In this document: positions 894-12,936 of the stretch, in pieces | How the letters are laid out: every line of letters starts with the position of its first letter | Position numbering within the stretch: the stretch's first letter is position 1 | Assembly: GCA_044356455.1 (NCBI GenBank) | Contig: JBIKWF010000109.1 | Location: 1-14,787 of the forward strand | DNA length: 14,787 nt | Direction: 5' to 3' | From: Bdellovibrionota bacterium | Lineage (GTDB): Bacteria; Bdellovibrionota_C; UBA2361; JBGSMV01 | Program-made: the position numbers and the translations under genes | Notes under the pieces: generated by a model | The model's database searches: none | Told to the model about the DNA's origin: nothing | What the model saw: the letters and a program-made list of their open reading frames with translations, nothing else

Positions 894-1046
894 CAGCAAA
901 CTGGTACACCCCAACTTTTTCCACGTCGGTTTTGGAGCGACTCTCGGTCGCATCCTGAACAAATTCAACATGATAGCCTGGCGGAATATGCCGCAGAGTT
1001 AATCTGGGTCTTACTCGAAAACTTGGGGTGTACCAGCTTCTGCACC
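894..1046. mobile_element. 153-bp MITE/REPIN-like element, family A, copy 1
   Basis: Matches 6221-6373 and 6976-7128 except at 969 (C vs A) and 1014 (C vs T). Inverted repeats CTGGTACACCCCAACTTTT (901-919) and AAAACTTGGGGTGTACCAG (1018-1036) pair at 18/19. Internal hairpins GCGAC-N5-GTCGC (937-951) and GCGG-N6-CCGC (981-994). The repeat is seen directly; mobility is inferred. Confidence 0.85.
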
Positions 1047-2103: not shown

Positions 2104-2227
2104 TAGGATACCCATTGTCCCCTATGTCTGGACTCGAGTTCCAGCTATTTGATTGGTGATTCCAAATTGTTAGCAGCACCGAAGGAATCTCAGGTAACTC
2201 TCGTGGTTACTAAGATTGGGTGTCCCA
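2104..2227. repeat. Family B inverted-terminus element, copy 1 (124 bp, degenerate left end)
   Basis: TAGGATACCCA (2104-2114, 2 mismatches to TGGGACACCCA) and TGGGTGTCCCA (2217-2227), with a 102-bp interior, the same spacing as B3. Confidence 0.6.
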
Positions 2228-2245
2228 CAGGGCAATTCTCAAGTG

Positions 2246-2272
2246 ACGCGGAGGACGCAGGGTACGCGGAGG
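2246..2272 (+). repeat. Imperfect 9-bp tandem repeat x3
   Basis: ACGCGGAGG ACGCAGGGT ACGCGGAGG. A related 9-bp-periodic motif occurs inverted at 3863-3880. Confidence 0.6.
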
Positions 2273-2480
2273 GTGAGTTTTTCAGAGGCTCCTTAGGAGA
2301 GCTGCGTAAGCAATCTAACTACTCCTCGTTCCCTTTCATTGCTGGAGCTCAGCAGCCTCCCCCTGGTTTCCAAGAGTGTTGCTCATTAGGTGCCGAATCT
2401 TCAGCCACTTACCAGAAAAGACGACATTTTAAAGGTAGGGTAAGGACTGCCCTGCGTAAGACCAGGCACTGGACGCCGCT

Positions 2481-3809
2481 ATGCCGTTAACGATCGGATC
2501 TAACATCAGCGCTCTGCAAACCCAGCGTGGCTTGAATCAAGCCAGCACGGCGCTGTCCCGTGCGCTGAATCGCCTTGCGTCCGGCTCCCGAATTACCACC
2601 GCCTCTGATGATGCTGCCGGGCTCTCTGTTGCCGACCAGCTTCGCAATAAGGGCCGTCTTTACGATACAGCGCTTCGTAACATCAATGACGGGATATCTG
2701 TGCTTAGCATTATCTCCGATACCCTTGGCAATCAGAAGTCTTTGGTGCAGCGCATGATTGAGCTGGCCGAACAATCGGCGAATGGGACCTTTTCGAGCGC
2801 TCAGCGTGATACCCTGAGCGCTGAGTACCGGCAACTTATGCAGGAATTCGGTCGGCTCGGCGACTCAACGTTCTTTAATGGTCGCAGTCTCATGCTTGGG
2901 GGCAGAGGAAGCAGTAATCCAGCATCGCTCCTCTTGCAGCTTGGGATCGATGGCGGGGCGGCGTCTCGGCTTGGGATCTCACTTGCCGACACCGGAACCC
3001 TGAGCGGCGTAATTGCCGAGTACAGCGCGCTAGGATCGGCCAGCTCGGTGGTAACTGGTGCAGAATACGAATCGTTTGATGCATTAATGGATGCGGTCCA
3101 AAATAAAGCAGTAAATCTCACTGTCAAGGACAGTCAGGGAGTGGATCGCGATATCGTGCTCGCATTCAGATACCAGTATTCGAATGGAACGTACGAGGCA
3201 GTGGTGTTTCAACGGCGTGTAGACATTGGAGACCCTGGCTATGAGCACATTTTGGAGCAGGCTTTAAGCAGCGATCCTGATAGCTGGTATGCAATGTCAG
3301 GAGTAGCGGTATCAGTTAACTCGGCGACTGGCATAGCGAGTGGTACTGGAACCATTTCGGTTAACCTAAACTTCGCCAATGGAACTGCTACTGGCGCGCT
3401 GTCGGTAGATTTGCGTGGCCTGCGATTTCTCTCTCCTATTAGTGCCCCACCACCAGTCGGAACAACCGACCGCACAAGCAACGATGGGATAACCAGTATC
3501 GAGTTTACCGGCGTTGAGAATGTGAGTCGTAGCCGAGCAGCCTTGGATATTTTGCGCAACCGACTCGACCAACTTTCTCTATTTCAAGGGAATATCGGAG
3601 CTAACCAGAGTCGCTTAACGGCGGCGCTTGAGGTGGCTAGAGCTTCAGGCGAGAATACTAAGGGAGCGGAATCCCGCATCCGCGACACCGATGTCGCTTC
3701 GGACTCCGCGATTCTTGTCGCGAGTCAAATTCGCCAATCGGTAGCAACTTCGGTTCTTGCCCAGGCCAATCAGCAAACACAATTAGCGCTCAGCCTGCTG
3801 CGCTTTTAA
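2481..3809 (+). CDS. fliC: Flagellin (442 aa)
   Basis: Flagellin N-terminal motifs (IGSNISAL, RLASGSRITTASDDAAGL, RNINDGIS, QRMIELAEQSANGT, FNG) and C-terminal motifs (IGANQSRL, AESRIRDTDVA, SVLAQANQ...LSLL) around a variable central region. Confidence 0.96.
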   Translation: MPLTIGSNISALQTQRGLNQASTALSRALNRLASGSRITTASDDAAGLSVADQLRNKGRLYDTALRNINDGISVLSIISDTLGNQKSLVQRMIELAEQSANGTFSSAQRDTLSAEYRQLMQEFGRLGDSTFFNGRSLMLGGRGSSNPASLLLQLGIDGGAASRLGISLADTGTLSGVIAEYSALGSASSVVTGAEYESFDALMDAVQNKAVNLTVKDSQGVDRDIVLAFRYQYSNGTYEAVVFQRRVDIGDPGYEHILEQALSSDPDSWYAMSGVAVSVNSATGIASGTGTISVNLNFANGTATGALSVDLRGLRFLSPISAPPPVGTTDRTSNDGITSIEFTGVENVSRSRAALDILRNRLDQLSLFQGNIGANQSRLTAALEVARASGENTKGAESRIRDTDVASDSAILVASQIRQSVATSVLAQANQQTQLALSLLRF

Positions 3810-3901
3810 TGTGAAAATATCGAACTCTTCCTCAGGAAGACCTGAAAAACTTTCTTTTTGAACTCCGTGTTCCCCGTGGTGAATTTCTTCATGTTCACAC
3901 T

Positions 3902-4028
3902 TGGGACACCCACTTTTTGTTCATTGAGGGCCCGCGAGCTCGAAACCTTTTCACTAACCATTCGAAATGATGAGCCATAGCATCGAATTGCTACCTTGTG
4001 CGTGATCGTGGAGTCATTGGGTGTCCCA
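3902..4028. repeat. Family B inverted-terminus element, copy 2 (127 bp)
   Basis: Perfect 11-bp inverted termini TGGGACACCCA (3902-3912) and TGGGTGTCCCA (4018-4028). 105-bp interior. CAGGGGG occurs twice at the right end. Confidence 0.75.
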
Positions 4029-4066
4029 GGGGGAAACCTTCAGGGGGAGCTCACTAGGGGAGCGGC

Positions 4067-6211
4067 TCATTTCTTCTCGCGTTCCCAGCCTTCTGTGCTG
4101 CTCCGCATGATACGCGTGGTGGAATACATAAGGTGCTCCCATGCGTTCGGGCTACCTTCAGCACGGTAATGTTCTTCCATTTCCCCGAAGGCGGCCATCG
4201 CTTCGGTTCCATAACGTCGCAGCAAAGCCTCAAAGTGTTGAATGAAGTTTGAGGGTAATCCTCGCATTCCAAATTTGAATGCATCAACGAGTTTTGGGAG
4301 TAGTTCTGCAGAAGGCTGAGCTTCAGCCTCCGCAAGAAGTTTTATGCAGCCGTGAATTCCCGAGCGCTGCAGTTCAAGTTCTTCTGGTTTTGTGGGAGAC
4401 CAATAAACAAGCTCATTAAGCGCGGTCGCGACCCAACTCGAATCCCCTTGCACCTTCGTGGGCAGGTTTGAAAGTCTATCCATGCAGAAGGCAATCTGTT
4501 CCGGTGACCGGCCAGCTTCTGTGAGACGGCGAAGAGACGGATGGAGAAGCTCGTTCTCACAATCGAGCATTTCAGTTGCCCGCAAACGAATTGTTTGCCG
4601 CGGTTCAGTTTGAGCTCCCATTAGTCCAAGCGCTGTTTCTAAAAGCGCATCCACTCCAGTCTGATCAAGGGCCGCAAAAACCATCTTCGCTGAGCGCTCA
4701 TAGATAAAGGGGCTTAAGCCGGGACCCACCACGGTATTTGGCGGCAGCTCCTCCGCGCCCCAGAGCCGCAGCACCTCAGCAAAGTCTTCAGTCATGTAGT
4801 CTGACTTGTCGTGACAAAGAATCGCTTCGACCGCCTGGGGGCCCATTGCAGCGAGCGCCACTACTGCGCCGCGCCGATGTGACTTATCGGCGTCAAAGAG
4901 GTCCAAAATTATCTTGTCAGGTGCACCCTGGTGACGGTCGTAGAGCATTGCCGCCTTCAGAAACACTTCACGGGGGAGGTCACCTACGTACGCGGCTCGA
5001 CCGGAAACGTCTCGAATTGCTGGTAGCGCTTGATTGGCTTGGTGAACGAATTCACGGTCCTCGAGCCCGCCTATTTTCCCAATCGTTCCGACGCAAACGG
5101 ACTGCACGCGCTGCCTAGGGGCTGGAATGACATTGGGAGGCAGGGAATCCGAAAAAGAACAGTTCGTCCACGGGTATTGCGGAAGCCTCGCGGGAGCGTC
5201 TCCTATCTTGAGAAGGAACGGCCTTTCGTGCCGAACCATACTACCGAGAGCTACGCGATCGTCCCGGGTCTGTACAAAGGGCTTGAGCCCGAAACGTTCT
5301 CCAAGCGCCAAAAGAACTTCCTCTGAACGTTCGATACCCAAGCCATTGGCTCCGCGAAAGCAGCGCATCTCTCCAAGAGGCGTTACCAGCGACACCTCGT
5401 GCAAAGTCGAATAGGCAAAGTGAAAACGCAGAAGGGGAGCACTTCCTGCGGCCACCCGCGCTCCATATTTCTCTACGGGCGCGAAGAGCTCAAAATCGTC
5501 GCCATCTTTTCCTCCCGAGCTTGGAAGTCTGCATTCTTTGGTCAAGAAGCGGTACAACGCTTCGCTGAGAGCGTGGCAGTCTGACAATGTAGTTCTAAGA
5601 GTTTGAGCATTTGCAGGTTCTTCTTTGCGCAGGAGTGCCGCGCCAATACCGGGGGGCAGCACATAGGTAAGTGCGTTCCCAAGGTCGCGCGCGGTAGCCC
5701 ACGCGATTCTCTCGCGCGCGAGAAGTACATTCTGATGAAAGACTTCTACCTCAGTAGCATCGTTTGGGAATGCGGCGCGGTAGTCTGCTAATTTAGGGTT
5801 GTCGCCAATCTTTTCTTCAATCGTGATTATATTTTGGCGGCGAAGCTCTCTGTCGTCTTGAGTGAGTCCATCGCGAAAGTAAGGATCCTGCGTGAGCGAG
5901 GTAAGGTGTTCAAAGAGATGCCGAGGTGAAAATCGTTCAGGCAGCTCTGTCATCGCTCGTGCAAAGAGTGCTCTCACGAGTTCGTCTGTTGAGGGTGGGA
6001 GCGTGCCCTTGGCTCCAAGCGCACGTGCGCGCGCCACCGCGGAGTCTGGTGCGGATAGCGGAACATCTAGGGAATTTTCAAGCCCCGGTTGTTTGGAAGC
6101 AGTAGAATGCACACCTGCTATTATGCTGGGTTTAGGTAACTTCGTCTCACAGGCAGGAACTCGGCAACTCTCCGGAATGCCTCGAGTTACCAACTGCGTT
6201 TGGAGGCTCAT
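4067..6211 (-). CDS. Large hypothetical protein (714 aa)
   Basis: 2.1-kb uninterrupted ORF. Pro/Ser-rich N-terminus and a helical-looking C-terminal third with one HEAT-like stretch (RRGAVVALAAMGPQAVEAIL). No family recognised. Confidence 0.8.
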   Translation of the reverse strand: MSLQTQLVTRGIPESCRVPACETKLPKPSIIAGVHSTASKQPGLENSLDVPLSAPDSAVARARALGAKGTLPPSTDELVRALFARAMTELPERFSPRHLFEHLTSLTQDPYFRDGLTQDDRELRRQNIITIEEKIGDNPKLADYRAAFPNDATEVEVFHQNVLLARERIAWATARDLGNALTYVLPPGIGAALLRKEEPANAQTLRTTLSDCHALSEALYRFLTKECRLPSSGGKDGDDFELFAPVEKYGARVAAGSAPLLRFHFAYSTLHEVSLVTPLGEMRCFRGANGLGIERSEEVLLALGERFGLKPFVQTRDDRVALGSMVRHERPFLLKIGDAPARLPQYPWTNCSFSDSLPPNVIPAPRQRVQSVCVGTIGKIGGLEDREFVHQANQALPAIRDVSGRAAYVGDLPREVFLKAAMLYDRHQGAPDKIILDLFDADKSHRRGAVVALAAMGPQAVEAILCHDKSDYMTEDFAEVLRLWGAEELPPNTVVGPGLSPFIYERSAKMVFAALDQTGVDALLETALGLMGAQTEPRQTIRLRATEMLDCENELLHPSLRRLTEAGRSPEQIAFCMDRLSNLPTKVQGDSSWVATALNELVYWSPTKPEELELQRSGIHGCIKLLAEAEAQPSAELLPKLVDAFKFGMRGLPSNFIQHFEALLRRYGTEAMAAFGEMEEHYRAEGSPNAWEHLMYSTTRIMRSSTEGWEREKK

Positions 6212-6220
6212 AAGCTACTT

Positions 6221-6373
6221 CAGCAAACTGGTACACCCCAACTTTTTCCACGTCGGTTTTGGAGCGACTCTCGGTCGCATCCTGAACAAATTCAAAATGA
6301 TAGCCTGGCGGAATATGCCGCAGAGTTAATCTGGGTCTTATTCGAAAACTTGGGGTGTACCAGCTTCTGCACC
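6221..6373. mobile_element. 153-bp family A element, copy 2
   Basis: Identical by eye to 6976-7128 and in the same orientation as the other copies. Begins 9 nt upstream of the ATG of the 714-aa gene. Confidence 0.85.
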
Positions 6374-6400
6374 GGCCGGCTCCAAGACAAGGACCCTGAT

Positions 6401-6847
6401 CTAAAGCGGAATCTGACGCGTATCAAAAAATGAGGCATTAAAGAGTCTCACCCAAACCACAAACACAGAGAGCGCAGCCAAACCGCTCGAAATAACAACC
6501 CGAGTTGTCCGGCTTTTAACTTTCAAAAGGTAGGGTAAAGGAGCCAAACATAGGGCCGCAACTAGTAGGTACAGGGCGCTGTCTGATGCAATCCAGTTGA
6601 AGAAGTCGTTAACTTCTGATGTCAACCGCCCGCAGCCGCTGTAGCAAATCTGAGGCCCCGAGCCGTTGGGCGTGAAATATTCATACCTTCTATCTCTTTG
6701 GAGCTCGCGTTGAAGAGCGAGCATCAAGAAACAACAAATCAGGTAAACGGCCTGCCACAATAGGACAAACGCAAGCCAGAGGAAGGGTTCTAGTGAGAAT
6801 AATGAAAACTTCGACCGAGCCGGCATCGAGACATTAGAATCTACCAT
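6401..6847 (-). CDS. Small membrane protein with about 3 TM segments (148 aa)
   Basis: SD-like AAAGGGG shortly before the ATG. Three hydrophobic segments and a loop containing CYSGC. Flanked by elements A2 and A3. Confidence 0.7.
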   Translation of the reverse strand: MVDSNVSMPARSKFSLFSLEPFLWLAFVLLWQAVYLICCFLMLALQRELQRDRRYEYFTPNGSGPQICYSGCGRLTSEVNDFFNWIASDSALYLLVAALCLAPLPYLLKVKSRTTRVVISSGLAALSVFVVWVRLFNASFFDTRQIPL

Positions 6848-6975
6848 TACTCAGACCCCTTTCAGATAAGTTTCAGGTGTGCTTTTTGTTGTTATGGAGA
6901 AAACGAATAAGTAGGACGCCTGATTCGGACACCCAAGATTTCAGACGTGCCAAATTTCGAAATATCGATTTCCTA

Positions 6976-7128
6976 CAGCAAACTGGTACACCCCAACTTT
7001 TTCCACGTCGGTTTTGGAGCGACTCTCGGTCGCATCCTGAACAAATTCAAAATGATAGCCTGGCGGAATATGCCGCAGAGTTAATCTGGGTCTTATTCGA
7101 AAACTTGGGGTGTACCAGCTTCTGCACC
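6976..7128. mobile_element. 153-bp family A element, copy 3
   Basis: Identical by eye to copy 2, with the same inverted termini and internal hairpins. Confidence 0.85.
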
Positions 7129-7212
7129 AGTTATTTAGGCGTGAGCCTTTTCTAACGAAGTGACTTCTGTCCGATGAAAGCGCGAGGCATATCCGTCCGC
7201 TATCGCGAATAT

Positions 7213-7995
7213 TTATAGCCTCTCCCACAACAGTTCGAACAGAGCGCACATCGTCTGGTAGTACTGGGGTTGGGTGATCTCAACTGCCATCTGGCTGCCC
7301 TCAGCATAGTTGGTTAGAAAAACGGAATCGCGGGCTAGGATGACGTCCGTTTGGAGCGCCGCCTCGCGTGGGACCTCCTTTATCTCGTGATTCGGATTTC
7401 GAATTCGGCGGCGATACCAGTCGAGTCGTGGTCCGGAAACGGCGATATCTCGAATACGCGGTTTTGTGCGAGCCGTCTGCTCAAGAAACTTGAGTACGAT
7501 AGCCCCAACGGCACCAGAGGTAGCACTCTCGGGATCCCAGAATGATCTAAAATCTCCGCTGCAGAGGACGTCCGAGAGCATCACGAGTGCGCCCTTGCCG
7601 GATTCTGCGGTGCGGATTCGAAGGTTACCCACTTGCAGGTGCGACCGTCTTTGGATCTTGGGGAGCTCCTCGCTCAGAAGCGTGGCGGCCAGCGCGACGT
7701 GGGCAGCTCGTTGCTCCGCCTCTCGCCTCAGTGACTCAACAATCAGGCCCGGATCCGCAGGGACATAGGTCACAATCTTCGTGCTCTGATCTCGGTGCAC
7801 TAGTCCGCGCTGCTCGAGATTAGTCAGTGATGAATAGACCGTAGAGCGCTTGATCTCTAGGCGGCGTGCGAGGACACCACCCGACGTTGGGCCTGTGGTC
7901 ATAAGATCCGCGAGGACGGTGCCCTCGGTGGTCGGGATCCCACACCGTTCCAGAAGGTTCACGATAGGTGGATGTTGTCGATCTTTCATCGGCAT
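7213..7995 (-). CDS. TrmB-family winged-HTH transcriptional regulator (260 aa)
   Basis: N-terminal pattern GxTxxExxV...GPTSGGVLARRLEIKRSTVYSSLTNLEQRGLV...Y.P.DP, a coiled linker, and a C-terminal effector-like domain ending FELLWE, as in TrmB-like regulators. Confidence 0.88.
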   Translation of the reverse strand: MPMKDRQHPPIVNLLERCGIPTTEGTVLADLMTTGPTSGGVLARRLEIKRSTVYSSLTNLEQRGLVHRDQSTKIVTYVPADPGLIVESLRREAEQRAAHVALAATLLSEELPKIQRRSHLQVGNLRIRTAESGKGALVMLSDVLCSGDFRSFWDPESATSGAVGAIVLKFLEQTARTKPRIRDIAVSGPRLDWYRRRIRNPNHEIKEVPREAALQTDVILARDSVFLTNYAEGSQMAVEITQPQYYQTMCALFELLWERL

Positions 7996-8040
7996 TTCTA
8001 TATCACATAATCTACTATAATTAATATAGAATTTATGATT
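7996..8040. promoter_or_regulatory. AT-rich divergent promoter/operator candidate
   Basis: TATAAT at 8016-8021 on +, and inverted repeat TTCTATAT (7996-8003) / ATATAGAA (8024-8031), between two divergent GC-rich genes. Confidence 0.5.
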
Positions 8041-8128
8041 TCTAGCTCATTCGACGAACTTATTTCAGCGGATATTGGAGACTCTCTTCACGACCCGCAC
8101 TGAAGCGAGGTCTTTAAAGAGGAGTGAT

Positions 8129-9058
8129 ATGGAAGCAAATACGGCAGTTCAATCAGGGAGCCTCGCGAATCTTTCTGCACCAGTCACAGCACCGCCAGTG
8201 CCGCGGATCGACCCCAACACGGGCTATCCGCTCGAGTCGCGTCTCTGGGTGCTTGGGGGGAGCGATCTCGAAATGAAGGTAATCGCCGGGCTGCTGCGGC
8301 TCGCAGGCGAGCGCTTTGTACAGCCGCGTAAAGAATGGGGCAACCACTCCTTTGATCCATCGGATCTCGGGATCGAAATGGTTGCGCGCGAATCCTCGTA
8401 TCACGGAGGGTTGGATCGCCGAAAGGAGCACCTTCCACGTGAGGGTCTTCCGAGGCTCTACGTCTTCGTTGAGTGTTCGCCTGGCAAAGGTTGGGAAGAC
8501 ACTAATCCAGTAGTTCTCGACCACCATGGCGAGCAATCTCAGTGGCCAGCCGCGGTACTACAGGTGCTGAAGAAGCTCGACTTGCAGATATCTGAACCGA
8601 CTCGGCGCTTCATCGAGCTGGTCGCGGCGAACGATGTCGCTCATATCGAGGGCATGCGGGCTCTTGGAGCCTCGATCGAGGAAATAGGAAGAATTCGAGC
8701 TCTCGATCGTGAGGCCCAGGGCATCGGTATTGAGCACGAGCGCGAAGCGGAGCGCGCCATCGGCAATCGTGTGCAGAAGGATCGACTCACCATTGTGTCT
8801 ATGGAGCATTCCAAGACCGCAACCGTAACAGATCGGCTCTATGGAAGTTACGACCAGCTCCTGGTCCGCTCAGGCGACGGCGAGGCAAACTTTTTCGGCG
8901 ATGGCAAACTCTGTGCGGAACTTCAGAAAAGATTCGGCGGCTGGTCAGGCGGTAGTGGTCTCGGCGTGCCAAGTCAGACGGCGTATTGGGGCATGTCAAA
9001 CGCCGGCGATAATGTTCAGAGTTTTATCGAAGAGCACCTTATGAATGGGGCTTCATGA
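8129..9058 (+). CDS. DHH-motif phosphoesterase, NrN-like (309 aa from ATG 8129)
   Basis: GAGGAG at 8119-8124 favours ATG 8129 over TTG 8075. Ordered motifs LGGSDLEM, FVE, LDHH, LQV, LVAAND, GMRALGAS.EEI..IR..DR.AQG and DRLY..YDQLLV match my recollection of the Bacteroides fragilis type III-B CRISPR-associated NrN. Confidence 0.75.
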   Translation: MEANTAVQSGSLANLSAPVTAPPVPRIDPNTGYPLESRLWVLGGSDLEMKVIAGLLRLAGERFVQPRKEWGNHSFDPSDLGIEMVARESSYHGGLDRRKEHLPREGLPRLYVFVECSPGKGWEDTNPVVLDHHGEQSQWPAAVLQVLKKLDLQISEPTRRFIELVAANDVAHIEGMRALGASIEEIGRIRALDREAQGIGIEHEREAERAIGNRVQKDRLTIVSMEHSKTATVTDRLYGSYDQLLVRSGDGEANFFGDGKLCAELQKRFGGWSGGSGLGVPSQTAYWGMSNAGDNVQSFIEEHLMNGAS

Positions 9059-9102
9059 GCGGCAGCGAAGATGTGACACGCTAGTGTATTGTTACCCGGG
9101 GC

Positions 9103-9139
9103 CTTGGCGCTTAACAGGAGTGAGCACCAAGCCTTGTTT
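9103..9139 (+). terminator. Possible intrinsic terminator of the DHH gene
   Basis: Imperfect stem CTTGGCGCTTA / TGAGCACCAAG followed by CCTTGTTT, about 45 nt after the stop. The U-tract is weak. Confidence 0.35.
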
Positions 9140-9278
9140 CAGGCCGCATTCGCTTCTGCTTGGGGCGCGCTTAGCGCTCATGCCGCTTCCACAAGGCGCC
9201 GAAAACCCTTGCCATTAACCTCGGCGAATCCGCGGGTAGCTGTGAGTAAGTAAATCAATCGTCCTGAGTATCTCCGGA

Positions 9279-9720
9279 GGGATAGGAGGGTAAGAGCTGA
9301 ATGAGTTTCAAACTGTTTGAAGTGGGCTGGTAGCGTAGCGACGGTCGTTCGCCGTGGTGGGCTGAAATGAGGGATGTGCCCTGGTTTCGGCTCTGCCTGG
9401 TGACCGACAGGCGAGCGATTTGGGATTTTTGGCGTTGTTTTTCGGTGTGTCGAGTGATTGCGGGAACACGGGTTACGCTGCCTGGGGAGTCAAGCGAAGT
9501 CGTCAGTGATGGAGAGTTTCTCTAAAGAGAGCGGTCCACGTTCTATGAAGGTTTCAAGCACCTCATCGCGCAGCACGCCGTAAGTCGGCTGAAACCAATC
9601 TTCCCAGGCCCGCGGGAGGTCATCCCGTCCGTGGCATACAATCCGGTACAGCGGCGACTCTTCCGGTTGCCTTCGGCGGTAGTGTTGGAGCTTCGCCTGC
9701 TACCAGCCCGCCTCCAAACC
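9279..9720 (-). mobile_element. Internally deleted IS91/ISCR-like element remnant (limits approximate)
   Basis: Contains a transposase fragment at 9490-9699. Downstream on the minus strand is CTCCTATCCC (9288-9279), resembling the TTCCTATACCC-type oriIS end of ISCR elements as recalled. Confidence 0.6.
9490..9699 (-). pseudogene. IS91-family (Y2/HUH) transposase fragment
   Basis: Manual translation: QAKLQHYRRRQPEESPLYRIVCHGRDDLPRAWEDWFQPTYGVLRDEVLETF-IERGPLSLEKLSITDDFA*. The first part resembles the N-terminus before the IS91 Zn-binding domain; IERGPLSLEKL resembles the (Y)xxRxPxSLExL segment of the Y2 domain. An in-frame TAG at 9702-9700 follows a GGAGG, and there is no start codon. Confidence 0.7.
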
Positions 9721-9805
9721 CTCCTAGGACGTCCTGTGACACACTCCTAGTCGAGGGCCGCTTAAAATGCTAGTTCTTTCGAGTTATTCTTCGGGGAATG
9801 TTCCT

Positions 9806-10858
9806 ATGAAATCATTCTGGTACTCAGCCCTCTTCCTGCTCACCCTGCTGTCTGCGAGCACTGCTTCCGCAGCACCCGTCAAGCTCACGGTTGGTTTCAT
9901 CGCGGCGCTCAGTGGCTCCGCTCAAAGTTACGGGGAGGCAGCTCGCAATGGCTTTGAAATGGCGCTCCGTGAAGTTAGAGACGTTGACGTTGGAGACGGC
10001 GCAATTCATGTGATCTACGAGGATGATCAATTCACTCCTGCAAAAACTGTCTCTAGTTTTAACAAACTCGCCAACCTTGATTCAATTGACGTAGCAGTAT
10101 GCGTAGGCTCAGCCACCTGCAATGCTATCGCTCCACTAGCTCAGTCGCGCGCCATTCCTTTGTTCGGGTGGGCCAGCGATAGAAACGTATCGCTTGGGCG
10201 CTCCATGGTGATGCGTACCTATCCGAGTGGTGAGAACGAAGGAAAACGAGCTGTCGAAGAAGCTCTCAGCAAGAACTTCTCAAAAATCGGCATGATCACC
10301 ACTATCCACGATTATCCTCAATCTTGGCGGGCTGGCGCACTAGAGACTCTTAAGCCTGAAAATTTGGCCTTTGAAACTCAGGTCATGCCTGACCTTAAAG
10401 ACTTTAGGTCTCTTTTGCTTAAAGCGCGCAGCCGTGGCGCTCAAGATTTATTGCTCTGTACACTTCCCGGTCAAGCGGGGCTAATCGCAAAGCAAGCTCT
10501 TGAGTTGGGAATAAAACCAAAAATTGGTGGCTGCGAGTTTCTATCGGATAAAAACGAACTCGCCCTTTCTGGCGGAGCTCTCAAGGGCGGCTGGTTCATC
10601 ACCGTTCAAGTCGCTCAAGCTTTTCGTGCGAACTACCTTGCTCAGTATAAGAATGACAATGCCATTTCTGGTGCAGTGGTTCACTACGATTTGGGAAAGC
10701 TATTACTCAAGGTGGCCGGAAAAGTTACCCGCCAAGAGTTAATTTCTGCGCTATTAAATCTGCGCCAGCATGAGAGCGCGGCTGGAACCGTGCTACTCAA
10801 GAACATCGAAGAGGATCGTTACTTTGAATATCCTCTCGTAGCTCAGATGATAGGGTAA
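9806..10858 (+). CDS. ABC-type periplasmic substrate-binding protein, LivJ/LivK-like
   Basis: Signal peptide from ATG 9806 (MKSFWYSALFLLTLLSASTASA|AP) with GGGGA upstream. Motifs VGFIAALSG..QSYGE..RNG.EMA, IYEDDQ..P, DFRSLLLK, and F...Y...Y. Confidence 0.9.
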   Translation: MKSFWYSALFLLTLLSASTASAAPVKLTVGFIAALSGSAQSYGEAARNGFEMALREVRDVDVGDGAIHVIYEDDQFTPAKTVSSFNKLANLDSIDVAVCVGSATCNAIAPLAQSRAIPLFGWASDRNVSLGRSMVMRTYPSGENEGKRAVEEALSKNFSKIGMITTIHDYPQSWRAGALETLKPENLAFETQVMPDLKDFRSLLLKARSRGAQDLLLCTLPGQAGLIAKQALELGIKPKIGGCEFLSDKNELALSGGALKGGWFITVQVAQAFRANYLAQYKNDNAISGAVVHYDLGKLLLKVAGKVTRQELISALLNLRQHESAAGTVLLKNIEEDRYFEYPLVAQMIG

Positions 10859-10861
10859 CGC

Positions 10862-12118
10862 GTGAATATTCTTTGGATAGCCTTTGTCTGGCCTGAGCCT
10901 GACTCCTCAGCAGCAGGCACTCGAACCCAGCAGCTGCTTCTCACGCTGCAAAAGCAAGGCTATCCCGTAACAGTGCTTTCCCCCTGCCAGGACAACAAGT
11001 ACCGGACAGCGCTCGAGCAGCAGGGTTTTCGCTGTTATCAATGCCCCCCTAATGACGCGCGATTTGATTCATTGCTCAAAGAGATTAATCCTCAGGTGGT
11101 CTTCTTCGACCGCTTTATGGTCGAAGAGCAATTCTCTTGGCGGGTTAAAGAGCACTGCCCAGAGGCCCTGCGTGTCTTAGACACTATCGATCTGCACTTT
11201 CTGCGGCGCGCTCGCCAACGCGCCTCTGAGCGGGGTGAAAGCGTTCAGAATCTTTGCGACTCCGAGAAGCACTCGACTGACACGCTGCGCGAGCTTTCTG
11301 CCATCTATCGCTCTGACCTTTCTCTCATTATTTCTTCTAGCGAGCTTCAACTCCTTCGCCACGAGTTCCAGATTCCGGAGTCTCTCCTTACCCTTTGCGC
11401 CATGTCCCGCGCGAAGCTTGAGAACTATCCAACTTTTGAAAATCGCAAAAACTGCGTAGCAATTGGAAATTTTAACCATCCTCCCAATAGAGATAGCGTT
11501 GAATTTCTAAGAGAGGATCTCTGGCCACGCATTAAAGGAATTTTGATTGAACGCGGAGTCTCGGCTCCCGAACTTCATATTTACGGCTCATACGCCAGCT
11601 CAGAGGTCTTAAAGCTTGATTCCTCAGCGACGGGTTTTCGAATTAAGGGATACACACCAGACGCGGCTCAAACTCTAAGCAACTACCGGGTCAATTTAGC
11701 CCCTCTGCGTTTCGGAGCGGGAGTAAAAGGAAAAATTCTCGACGGCTGGGCGGGCGGCACACCTAGCGCCGCAACCCACCTTGCAGCCGAGGGTATGACG
11801 ATGTGCAAGGAGGGCAGATCACTATTTGGCGGAATTTTAGAGGACTCCGCCGAGCACTTTGTGCAGCGCGCCGCGGATCTTTACTCTGACCAAGTCCTTT
11901 GGGAGAAGTCACAAACTGCTGGATTCGAAATACTAGAGGGCTGTTTTAACCCTCTGCGCAATGAGAACCTCTTCATCGAAGTACTTAAAGCCTCGTATGC
12001 GATGCGTCATGAGCGGCGCCTTCAGAACACCATCGGCGCCATGCTATGGTATCAAGGTAATCGAAGTACGGAATACTTTTCGCGCTGGATAGAGGAGAAG
12101 AACAAAGCCAACGCTTAG
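10862..12118 (+). CDS. GT-B fold glycosyltransferase, GT4 family (418 aa)
   Basis: Motifs WPEPDSSAAG.R, VFFDRFMVEEQFSWRV, LDTIDLHFLR, IGNFNHPPN.D, RVNLAPLRFGAGVKGKI, and STEYFSRWIEEKN. GTG start 3 nt after the upstream stop, suggesting an operon. Confidence 0.92.
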   Translation: MNILWIAFVWPEPDSSAAGTRTQQLLLTLQKQGYPVTVLSPCQDNKYRTALEQQGFRCYQCPPNDARFDSLLKEINPQVVFFDRFMVEEQFSWRVKEHCPEALRVLDTIDLHFLRRARQRASERGESVQNLCDSEKHSTDTLRELSAIYRSDLSLIISSSELQLLRHEFQIPESLLTLCAMSRAKLENYPTFENRKNCVAIGNFNHPPNRDSVEFLREDLWPRIKGILIERGVSAPELHIYGSYASSEVLKLDSSATGFRIKGYTPDAAQTLSNYRVNLAPLRFGAGVKGKILDGWAGGTPSAATHLAAEGMTMCKEGRSLFGGILEDSAEHFVQRAADLYSDQVLWEKSQTAGFEILEGCFNPLRNENLFIEVLKASYAMRHERRLQNTIGAMLWYQGNRSTEYFSRWIEEKNKANA

Positions 12119-12157
12119 GCCTCCTTCCAGGGGGGAGTGCCGCAGCGAATTCGCCCA

Positions 12158-12781
12158 TCAGCGCGCCGAATATTCGTCAAGTACCCTGGATAAGCTCGAA
12201 ATGGCGTAGACAGGCAGGCAGAGCATATCAGTTTCAATTTCCTTCGTTCCCTCCCCAGTGACCACGCGCTGCTTAACCTTACTTACAAAACTCTTTCGCT
12301 CGGAGAGATCAAACCGTACCACAACTTTCGCGCCTTTCGCGGCCACATACTGCCAAAGCGAGCGCATCTTTCCAGTAGCTCCGGATTTGACTTCTACTGG
12401 GTAGATGCGCCCTTTCTCGGCGATCAAAAAATCAATCTCGGCCGCGCCCTCTTTGCCTCCTCGCAACCAATAATAGAGCTCTGTCAGCTCAGTATCTCCT
12501 CTCCTAAATACCAAATGCTGCGCAATAAACTGCTCAGCCAGGAAGCCCTTGGTGAGTAGCTCCTCTGCTGGGAGCTTAAAAAGCTCCTCCCACTCCAACC
12601 CGGTTGCTGCGTTATAAAGACCAACATCTAAGAAGTATAGTTTCATCGTGCTTGGGTCCGCGCAGGCCTTCAATGGCAAACCTGAAGCCTTATTATTACT
12701 GGCTGCGTACACCACACTCGCTCTCGCCAAGACCGCGATAGCTTCTCTCACTCGACTAGAATGGGCGCCTGAAAAACTTAT
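12158..12781 (-). pseudogene. 5'-truncated AAA_14/DUF4143 ATP-binding protein (C-terminal half only)
   Basis: Motifs KLYFLDVGL, GFLAEQFIAQHL, LYYW, AEIDFLI and YPVEVKSG (DUF4143 with PD-(D/E)xK-like end). No Walker A/B. The nominal TTG start (12793) and first codons fall inside the left end of element B3. Confidence 0.82.
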
Positions 12782-12905
12782 TGGGACACCCAATTTCTAT
12801 AGCCGAGAGTGAGGGCTGAAGTTCCCCTTAAGCGGCTAACGGCCTGAAATAAATAGTCGCCCTGCTTCGGCCTGAATTAGGCAACGGGAAAGAATGGGTG
12901 TCCCA
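12782..12905. repeat. Family B inverted-terminus element, copy 3 (124 bp)
   Basis: TGGGACACCCA (12782-12792) and TGGGTGTCCCA (12895-12905), with a 102-bp interior. Confidence 0.75.
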
Positions 12906-12936
12906 GGGGGCTTCCCAGGGGGCTTCCCAGGGGGCT
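12901..12936 (+). repeat. Perfect 12-bp tandem repeat x3 (TCCCAGGGGGCT)
   Basis: Units at 12901-12912, 12913-12924 and 12925-12936. The first overlaps the right terminus of B3. Confidence 0.92.

What the first reader, a model, noticed from the sequence alone, without database searches (positions are those of the whole stretch)
2104..12905. Family B: fixed 11-bp ends and near-fixed length, but different interiors
Seen: interiors of 102, 105 and 102 bp show no similarity to each other by eye, while the ends are conserved. Each end is itself a mini-palindrome (TGGG-ACA-CCCA). Ordinary MITE copies share their interior, as family A does. Inference: selection acts on end sequence and spacing only. 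This could reflect a two-site protein-binding or synaptic geometry, or captured ~100-bp inserts that might act as guides or a record of foreign DNA.
Basis: partly seen in the sequence, partly recalled or inferred. Interest (0 to 1): 0.78.

Follow-up and report, generated by a model that had tools for sequence, protein, structure and literature searches.

The report
Mini-transposons with central IHF-like site
The three repeats are gene-less miniature copies of a little-studied tyrosine-transposase element, and their near-constant length is best explained by a conserved binding site for the DNA-bending protein IHF placed exactly midway between the two ends, not by captured foreign DNA.

Summary
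The repeats are real. In this genome 19 of 24 inverted GGACACCCA pairs have gaps of 99-105 bp. The interiors are not unrelated. Each window copy has gap-free or near gap-free homologues elsewhere in the genome at 54-87% identity. A 13-bp motif resembling the IHF consensus sits at the exact midpoint, with arms of about 45 and 44 bp. The same end word flanks a multi-copy HUH/Y1 transposase gene with TnpA-Y1 subclass 2.3 signatures, here and in relatives. Family B is therefore most likely its gene-less, MITE-like derivative. The captured-insert or guide idea is not (no credible phage, plasmid or Rfam match), and the mini-palindrome is not conserved. The scan had already tied this end word to subclass 2.3 on other DNA (e1-1159272, e1-1498706). 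The addition here is the fixed-position IHF-like site, also seen in two unrelated genomes. It suggests these 'single-strand' enzymes pair their ends on IHF-bent double-stranded DNA. Binding and mobility are inferred, not shown.

The parts
2104..2227 (+). Family B element 1 (core ends GGATACCCA 2106-2114 and TGGGTGTCC 2217-2225; 102-bp interior; subfamily 1). Lies between divergent genes, upstream of a flagellin gene
2160..2173 (+). Central IHF-like site of element 1 (7 of 9 matches to WATCAANNNNTTR; arms 45 and 44 bp)
3902..4028 (-). Family B element 2 (cores 3904-3912 and 4018-4026; 105-bp interior; subfamily 2). 87% identical to G000:C112:37627 apart from a 5-bp insertion in one arm
3954..3967 (-). 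Central IHF-like site of element 2, displaced 5 bp by the insertion
12782..12905 (-). Family B element 3 (cores 12784-12792 and 12895-12903; 102-bp interior; subfamily 1). 69-72% identical, without gaps, to three copies on other contigs
12836..12849 (-). Central IHF-like site of element 3 (7 of 9 matches; arms 45 and 44 bp)
12901..12936 (+). Three tandem copies of a 12-bp unit directly outside the end of element 3; the unit includes the first three bases of the end word (reiterated tip)
   Evidence: (D2)
6927..6935 (+). Solo GGACACCCA end word, 40 bp before family A copy 3
894..1046 (+). Family A copy 1, a sister element: GGTACACCCCAA-type ends, IHF-like site at 963-976
6221..6373 (+). Family A copy 2 (IHF-like site at 6290-6303)
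6976..7128 (+). Family A copy 3 (IHF-like site at 7045-7058)

Best explanation
Family B elements are gene-less, about 120-bp miniature derivatives of a TIR-flanked HUH/Y1 transposase element (TnpA-Y1 subclass 2.3-like; TIRtron-like). SHOWN: the anatomy is end word, about 45 bp, a 13-bp IHF-like site, about 44 bp, inverted end word; interiors are diverged copies; the same end word brackets the transposase gene; gene plus ends have duplicated as a unit in one relative. INFERRED: the transposase, supplied in trans, binds the two GGACACCCA words as sequence motifs rather than as hairpins. INFERRED: because 100 bp of duplex DNA is too stiff to loop unaided, host IHF binds the midpoint and bends it so the two ends meet; only copies that keep both words, the IHF site and the arm lengths are copied further, so point mutations fill the arms while insertions and deletions are purged. 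INFERRED, weaker: cutting and joining happen at or up to about 12 bp outside the word, without a target duplication, sometimes leaving a reiterated tip.
For: Spacing peak. Unguided stacking of 24 interiors gives one 13-column peak at offset 45, 10.3 bits against 2.44 +/- 0.24 (maximum 2.85) in 20 shuffles. One representative of each of 11 clusters scores 6.45 of 9 on the E. coli IHF consensus at offsets 43-47, against 4.74 +/- 0.28 (maximum 5.73 of 2000 shuffles) and 4.18-5.27 at 14 other offset windows. The genome has IHF-alpha-like and IHF-beta-like genes as best matches, below curated cut-offs. An unrelated IS5-type MITE family of the same size carries the same motif near its centre. Five 5' halves and five 3' halves of the HUH gene end at contig breaks, each with an inward-facing end word. 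In 21 homologue loci of the order, 15 have the word (up to one mismatch) within 320 bp upstream and 12 of 18 downstream, against 1 of 19 control windows. Two copies in G025 are about 100% identical in the gene and diverge at the words. Of 8 genomes with pairs, 7 are among the 22 of 91 with the gene; 5 of 5 distant genomes with several pairs have a match to it, one only partial. Fold model of a homologue: pLDDT 91, best match E. coli TnpA-REP 4ER8, E 1.4e-3, probability 1.00. Fixed-position IHF-like sites recur in G092 (arms 28/48) and G094 (48-49/48-49). No target duplication above chance.
Against: No binding, cutting or movement was observed; no empty site in four runs' contigs or in the one congener with any DNA match. 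Matches to the E. coli consensus are imperfect (5-8 of 9) and the conserved form ends in TTAG, so another protein could read it; the 43-47 window was chosen after seeing the stack. Four of 24 elements lack a clear central site. Thirteen pairs from order-level relatives show no consistent central site and gaps of 85-108. In GTDB, 86 of 133 matches are nested clusters and the 47 simple ones spread over 88-115. The interiors do not resemble the DNA inside the ends of the transposase element, so they are not simple internal deletions. Eight singletons cannot be linked to any other copy. No intact full-length gene is assembled in this genome.
Confidence: 0.72

Rival explanations
1. De novo assembly: the HUH enzyme lays its end word on either side of an IHF-bent stretch of host DNA, so new elements arise with new interiors and are then copied into small subfamilies.
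For: Eight singletons and three subfamilies share no arm similarity at z>4. The five 3' halves of the HUH gene are 86-96% identical over the last 300 coding bases, yet their 160-187-bp spacers to the end word are 40-46% identical, the shuffled level, and unique in the genome. G092 elements of identical length are only 47-54% alike. Polarised tip reiterations show the end region is copied: 5 of 99 sites against 7 of 5000 random positions.
Against: Identities run continuously from 87% down to background, as plain divergence predicts. The G025 duplicates kept their 3' spacer (95%). Old copies with gene conversion of the coding part, or collapsed assembly, can explain the unrelated spacers; G013's nine copies are only 57-83% identical.
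Confidence: 0.13
2. Domesticated chromosome-architecture or regulatory sites, like E. coli IHF-binding BIMEs: no longer mobile, kept by selection on the host.
For: 24 of 24 lie outside ORFs of 150 aa or more. BIMEs bind IHF (review passages). Subclass 2.3 copies within a genome average only 74.8% identity.
Against: No exact pair in the congener G034 (91% complete). No preferred gene context: 13 tandem, 5 divergent, 3 convergent, 3 unassigned. Subfamily members cluster locally (four on C211 within 13 kb), as expected of local hopping.
Confidence: 0.1
3. Captured foreign inserts acting as guides or a record of infection.
For: Near-fixed length; some interiors are unique.
Against: 16 of 24 interiors are diverged copies of one another and a fixed central motif runs through them. 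No phage match for elements 2 and 3 and only E 0.9 matches for element 1; no plasmid match for element 2; no Rfam match. Elements are dispersed, not arrayed.
Confidence: 0.02
4. MITE of a classical DDE transposase (for example the resident IS5 type) that happens to share the word.
For: An IS5-type MITE of the same size with the same central motif is abundant here, and parts of it lie beside elements 1 and 2.
Against: Arms are unrelated to the IS5-type MITE (mean z -0.42, maximum 2.94 of 240 comparisons); adjacency is not enriched (2 of 48 flanks against 18 of 300 random); no target duplication; the word brackets HUH genes.
Confidence: 0.03

Closest known systems
TIRtron / TIRYT and their TIR repeat families (Di Nocera et al. 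2013, PMC3733652; section 16 and passages read)
   Same: HUH/Y1 gene flanked by inverted repeats unrelated to GTAG REPs; gene-less TIR singles, dimers and clusters; the GGGGWSAS consensus resembles (T/N)GGGACAC.
   Different: The text read describes no fixed dimer length and no IHF site; most TIRYTs are subclass 2.1 with an HTH tail according to Quentin et al., while this partner has subclass 2.3 signatures.
TnpA-Y1 subclass 2.3 (Quentin et al. 2018, PMC6006769; abstract, background, sections 11 and 15 part 1, passages)
   Same: About 325 aa, NHxH, WE, Y(V/I)DLNP and TS motifs, several copies per genome.
   Different: That paper reports no identifiable REP-like structures beside the gene; here a 9-bp inverted word brackets it and a miniature derivative exists.
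REPINs (Bertels and Rainey 2011, PMC3116915; passages) and E. coli BIMEs/RIBs that bind IHF (cited in PMC3184786, PMC3479197; the primary paper was not held)
   Same: Two inverted RAYT-associated ends at a preferred distance with a less conserved spacer whose length matters; IHF binding in some BIMEs.
   Different: REPIN spacers form hairpins and REPs are 20-40-bp palindromes with a GTAG tag; family B has no tag, no conserved palindrome and no interior hairpin.
Bacterial MITEs with IHF sites: Neisseria Correia 155-bp element, Coxiella QMITE1 (PMC2229807, PMC5896051; passages)
   Same: Short gene-less element with inverted ends and an internal IHF site proposed to aid transposition.
   Different: Those have longer TIRs, target duplications and conserved interiors; family B has 9-bp ends, no duplication, a HUH partner, and keeps only ends, site and arm length.

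Membership tests
TIRtron/TIRYT TIR repeat family | Same repeat flanks a HUH/Y1 gene in inverted orientation | tested here: met
   in G000 shown on separate 5' and 3' halves
TIRtron/TIRYT TIR repeat family | Repeat unrelated to GTAG REPs and also found as gene-less singles, dimers, clusters | tested here: met
   99 sites, 17 exact inverted pairs within 300 bp; no GTAG in the flank profile
TIRtron/TIRYT TIR repeat family | GGGGWSAS consensus (most, not all, TIRs) | tested here: inconclusive
   Last six positions fit; the two bases before the core are mostly T then G/A
TnpA-Y1 subclass 2.3 (partner protein) | About 325 aa; NHYH-type HUH, WE, YVDLNP, TS motifs | tested here: met
   17 homologues of 316-355 aa: NHxH 16, WEGRF 17, Y(V/I)DLNP 17, TS 15; G000 halves carry NHLH, WEGRF, YIDLNP, TS
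TnpA-Y1 subclass 2.3 (partner protein) | Placement by the authors' subclass profiles or tree | not tested
   Profiles not available; NF047646 matched below cut-off
HUH/Y1 fold | IS200/RAYT core fold | tested here: met
   Model of homologue L010 matches 4ER8 and IS200-family structures at the top ranks, E just above 0.001
REPIN | Inverted doublet at a preferred spacing, intergenic, RAYT-like gene in the genome | tested here: met
REPIN | Ends are palindromic REPs with a GTAG-type tag | tested here: not met
REPIN | Spacer folds into a hairpin | tested here: not met
   Folding z from -3.6 to +1.8 over 24 elements; +0.8, +1.8, -0.5 for the window copies
Classical (DDE) MITE | Short, gene-less, inverted ends, multi-copy | tested here: met
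Classical (DDE) MITE | Target-site duplication | tested here: not met
   Longest flank repeats match the mismatched-pair null; no empty site available
IHF-binding element | WATCAANNNNTTR-like site | tested here: met
   consensus from PMC5896051
IHF-binding element | IHF binds and bends it | not testable with these tools
   needs a binding assay
CRISPR-like or integron-like capture array | Arrayed repeats with unique foreign inserts | tested here: not met

The most novel reading that the evidence does not exclude
Subclass 2.3 HUH enzymes work on IHF-bent double-stranded DNA and can create new mobile units by writing their end word on both sides of a host IHF site at a fixed distance, so interiors (and the 3' spacers of the transposase gene) are captured host DNA rather than decayed copies of one ancestor.
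Probability: 0.13. Interest if true: 0.82.

Novelty: new variant of a known kind. Interest (0 to 1): 0.48.

Why it matters
HUH/Y1 transposases that have been studied bind hairpins in single-stranded DNA. TIR-flanked members are widespread but, in the papers found, untested. A 120-bp natural minimal substrate that keeps only two 9-bp words, a midpoint IHF-like site and two arm lengths predicts recognition and pairing of ends on duplex DNA with host help, and makes that directly testable in vitro. It also shows three differently ended miniature families in one genome carrying the same IHF-like site. If IHF does not bind, this falls back to an ordinary new TIR-dimer family.

Tried and rejected
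Foreign origin: blastn of the three interiors against 50,697 phage records and of element 2 against 72,556 plasmids gave nothing credible; elements 1 and 3 were not searched against plasmids. Rfam: none. Conserved RNA or ssDNA hairpin: not supported (ends were set to the consensus word for all elements in that folding). Target duplications: none above chance. Preferential insertion beside IS5-type MITEs, suggested by eye in this window: not enriched. Derivation from IS5-type MITE arms: no. Empty sites: none in four runs' contigs; relatives too distant. Expression: no RNA holder listed, which is no evidence either way. Independent check of the motif at sigma-54-like promoters: 6 of 36 upstream against 3 of 36 downstream, inconclusive (promoter pattern recalled). 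Pfam found no family for the partial partner protein and PDB sequence search none for a homologue. The Boccard and Prentki RIB paper was not held. Literature searches found two works using TIRYT and none, by title, abstract or passages read, describing a fixed-length IHF-centred TIR dimer of a Y1 element; supplements and figures of PMC3733652 and PMC6006769 were not seen and may list these repeats. Rows dropped: the working set of 24 elements is the pairs with gaps 88-110 out of 48 pairs found with up to two mismatches; 86 nested of 133 GTDB matches were set aside before the motif test; L100 is from a different genome than G094 and is not counted.
Full report
OBSERVATION. The window is contig C100 of a 4.70-Mb, 216-contig genome held by lake-water metagenomes. 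Inverted pairs peak sharply: 14 of 17 exact pairs and 19 of 24 one-mismatch pairs within 300 bp have gaps of 99-105, against 0.004 expected. I used as working set the 24 pairs with gaps 88-110 among 48 found with up to two mismatches; 20 of them measure 99-102. All 24 lie outside ORFs of 150 aa or more. Profile searches added about seven decayed copies.

INTERIORS. With ends and central motif masked, 36 of 276 pairs align at z>4, giving subfamilies of 8, 6 and 2 and 8 singletons. Element 2 is 87% identical to a copy on C112 and differs by a 5-bp insertion, which explains its 105 bp. Element 3 is 69-72% identical without gaps to three copies; element 1 is 54-60% identical to six members of the same subfamily. 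Keeping exactly 102 bp at such divergence argues for selection on length. Interiors do not fold better than shuffles as a group and match no phage, plasmid or Rfam entry credibly.

CENTRAL SITE. Stacking the interiors without any prior motif gave a single 13-column peak at offset 45 (10.3 bits; null 2.44 +/- 0.24, 20 shuffles), consensus about WTTCAR-N4-TTAG. With this derived form, 19 of 24 elements score at least 7 of 9 at offsets 44-47 and element 2 does so at 51; that count is circular. The independent test used the E. coli IHF consensus WATCAANNNNTTR (quoted in PMC5896051) on one member per cluster: 6.45 of 9, above all 2000 shuffles and all 14 other windows; the window was chosen after seeing the stack. 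The site is at the midpoint: 45 + 13 + 44. Two shortened copies lost 10-12 bp, about one helical turn, from the same arm. The genome encodes best matches to both IHF subunits. An IS5-type MITE family with unrelated arms and the same length carries the motif near its centre, as does family A; the IS5 label comes from earlier scan notes and was not tested.

PARTNER. Solo words led to a HUH gene present as five 5' and five 3' halves at contig ends, each with an inward-facing word. Its motifs and the length of full homologues fit TnpA-Y1 subclass 2.3 of Quentin et al.; a model of one homologue matches TnpA-REP best. Across the order the word brackets the gene (15 of 21 upstream, 12 of 18 downstream, 1 of 19 controls; three more have a GGACAGGC variant upstream). 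Two G025 copies share gene and spacers up to the words, so the unit has moved whole. Family A's end word likewise precedes a different HUH gene on C29 and C88. Kin are not independent, so these counts are descriptive.

GENERALITY. Central IHF-like hits were modestly enriched (13 against 3.4 +/- 1.8). Within single genomes, fixed geometry recurs: G092 has three distinct 89-bp interiors, 47-54% alike, two scored at arms 28/48 and the third showing the motif there by eye; G094 has 109-111-bp interiors with a central site in 4 of 6 examined. Thirteen pairs from order-level relatives do not show it.

ENDS. No target duplication is detectable. Family A copies share 9 and 12 bp outside their words, then diverge, whereas G025 copies diverge at the word. 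Short tandem repeats abut the word on its outer side and end inside it: 5 of 99 sites here against 0 in shifted and mirror controls, and 73 of 545 in GTDB loci, where controls are 37 of 525 and 31 because of clusters; the two commonest end points are +8 (clusters) and +3. Element 3 shows this at 12901-12936.

MECHANISM. Most likely (0.72) the transposase acts in trans on the two words while IHF bends the midpoint to bring them together, so that only words, site and arm lengths are under selection. The anatomy and linkage are shown; binding, bending and movement are inferred. The main open alternative (0.13) is de novo assembly on host DNA, prompted by the unrelated 3' spacers behind 86-96% identical coding ends; age with gene conversion is the simpler account.

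COMPARISON AND VERDICT. It works like a REPIN/BIME or an IHF-carrying MITE, fails the REPIN tests of tag, palindrome and hairpin, fails the target-duplication test of classical MITEs, and meets the TIRtron definition. TIR dimers and IHF sites in MITEs and BIMEs are each in print; my searches did not find the combination, and supplements were not seen. Earlier scan notes, read after my own analysis, had tied the word and the reiterated tips to subclass 2.3 on other DNA. New variant of a known kind; interest 0.48.

Noticed in passing
window 894-1046, 6221-6373, 6976-7128: Family A: three 97-99% identical copies within 6.2 kb; this interior was found in no other pair in the genome. Its end word precedes a second kind of HUH gene on G000:C29 and C88; no target duplication by eye.
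   Followed up: partly
G000:C17, C64, C110, C147, C181 (3' halves of the HUH gene): Coding ends 86-96% identical but the 160-187-bp spacers to the end word are unrelated and unique. Unexplained: gene conversion or replacement.
   Followed up: partly
upstream of HUH genes: L004, L008, L011, L012, L017, L018, L024, L025, L026: Motif GCAACTTY-N13-CGAW; all 10 hits had spacing 13 when 9-17 was allowed. In G013 the word sits 61-62 bp before the start in 8 of 9 copies with a TAAA...CCGATA motif. Both resemble sigma-28-type promoters (recalled).
   Followed up: partly
G000:C140:3288-4593 and C84:30091-31065 region (L005, L006): Two complete copies of another HUH element bounded by inverted GGTGCCACCCAC words, with conserved spacers.
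   Followed up: partly
G000, 88 pairs CTCTGAAAA..TTTTCAGAG; partial copies at window 2238-2298 and 3829-3900: IS5-type MITE family, 45 of 88 with gaps 101-102, carrying an IHF-like site at 50-51/38.
   Followed up: partly
G000:C189, C150, C118 upstream of the HUH gene; C33: A further miniature family (TGTCCCGTA-type ends, gap 81 in 33 of 41) is inserted, whole or in part, between the left word and the gene.
   Followed up: no
window 2481-3809: Flagellin gene (Pfam N and C domains); contigs in other runs show variant alleles or paralogues at 2549-2927.
   Followed up: no
window 2424-2443 and 6519-6538: Two similar 20-bp stretches ending AAAGGTAGGGTAA, one 40 bp upstream of the flagellin start (D9); possible promoter.
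   Followed up: no
window 9502-9698: Multi-copy sequence with raised depth and loose ends in all four runs, also matching three contigs of G034; probably a fragment of a mobile element.
   Followed up: no
window 12158-12793: Partial DUF4143 (AAA ATPase C-terminal) ORF that starts at element 3, apparently truncated at its 5' side.
   Followed up: no
G091:C2 (L072, L087-L089, L206): Dozens of arrays of the word at a 20-bp period, in both orientations.
   Followed up: no
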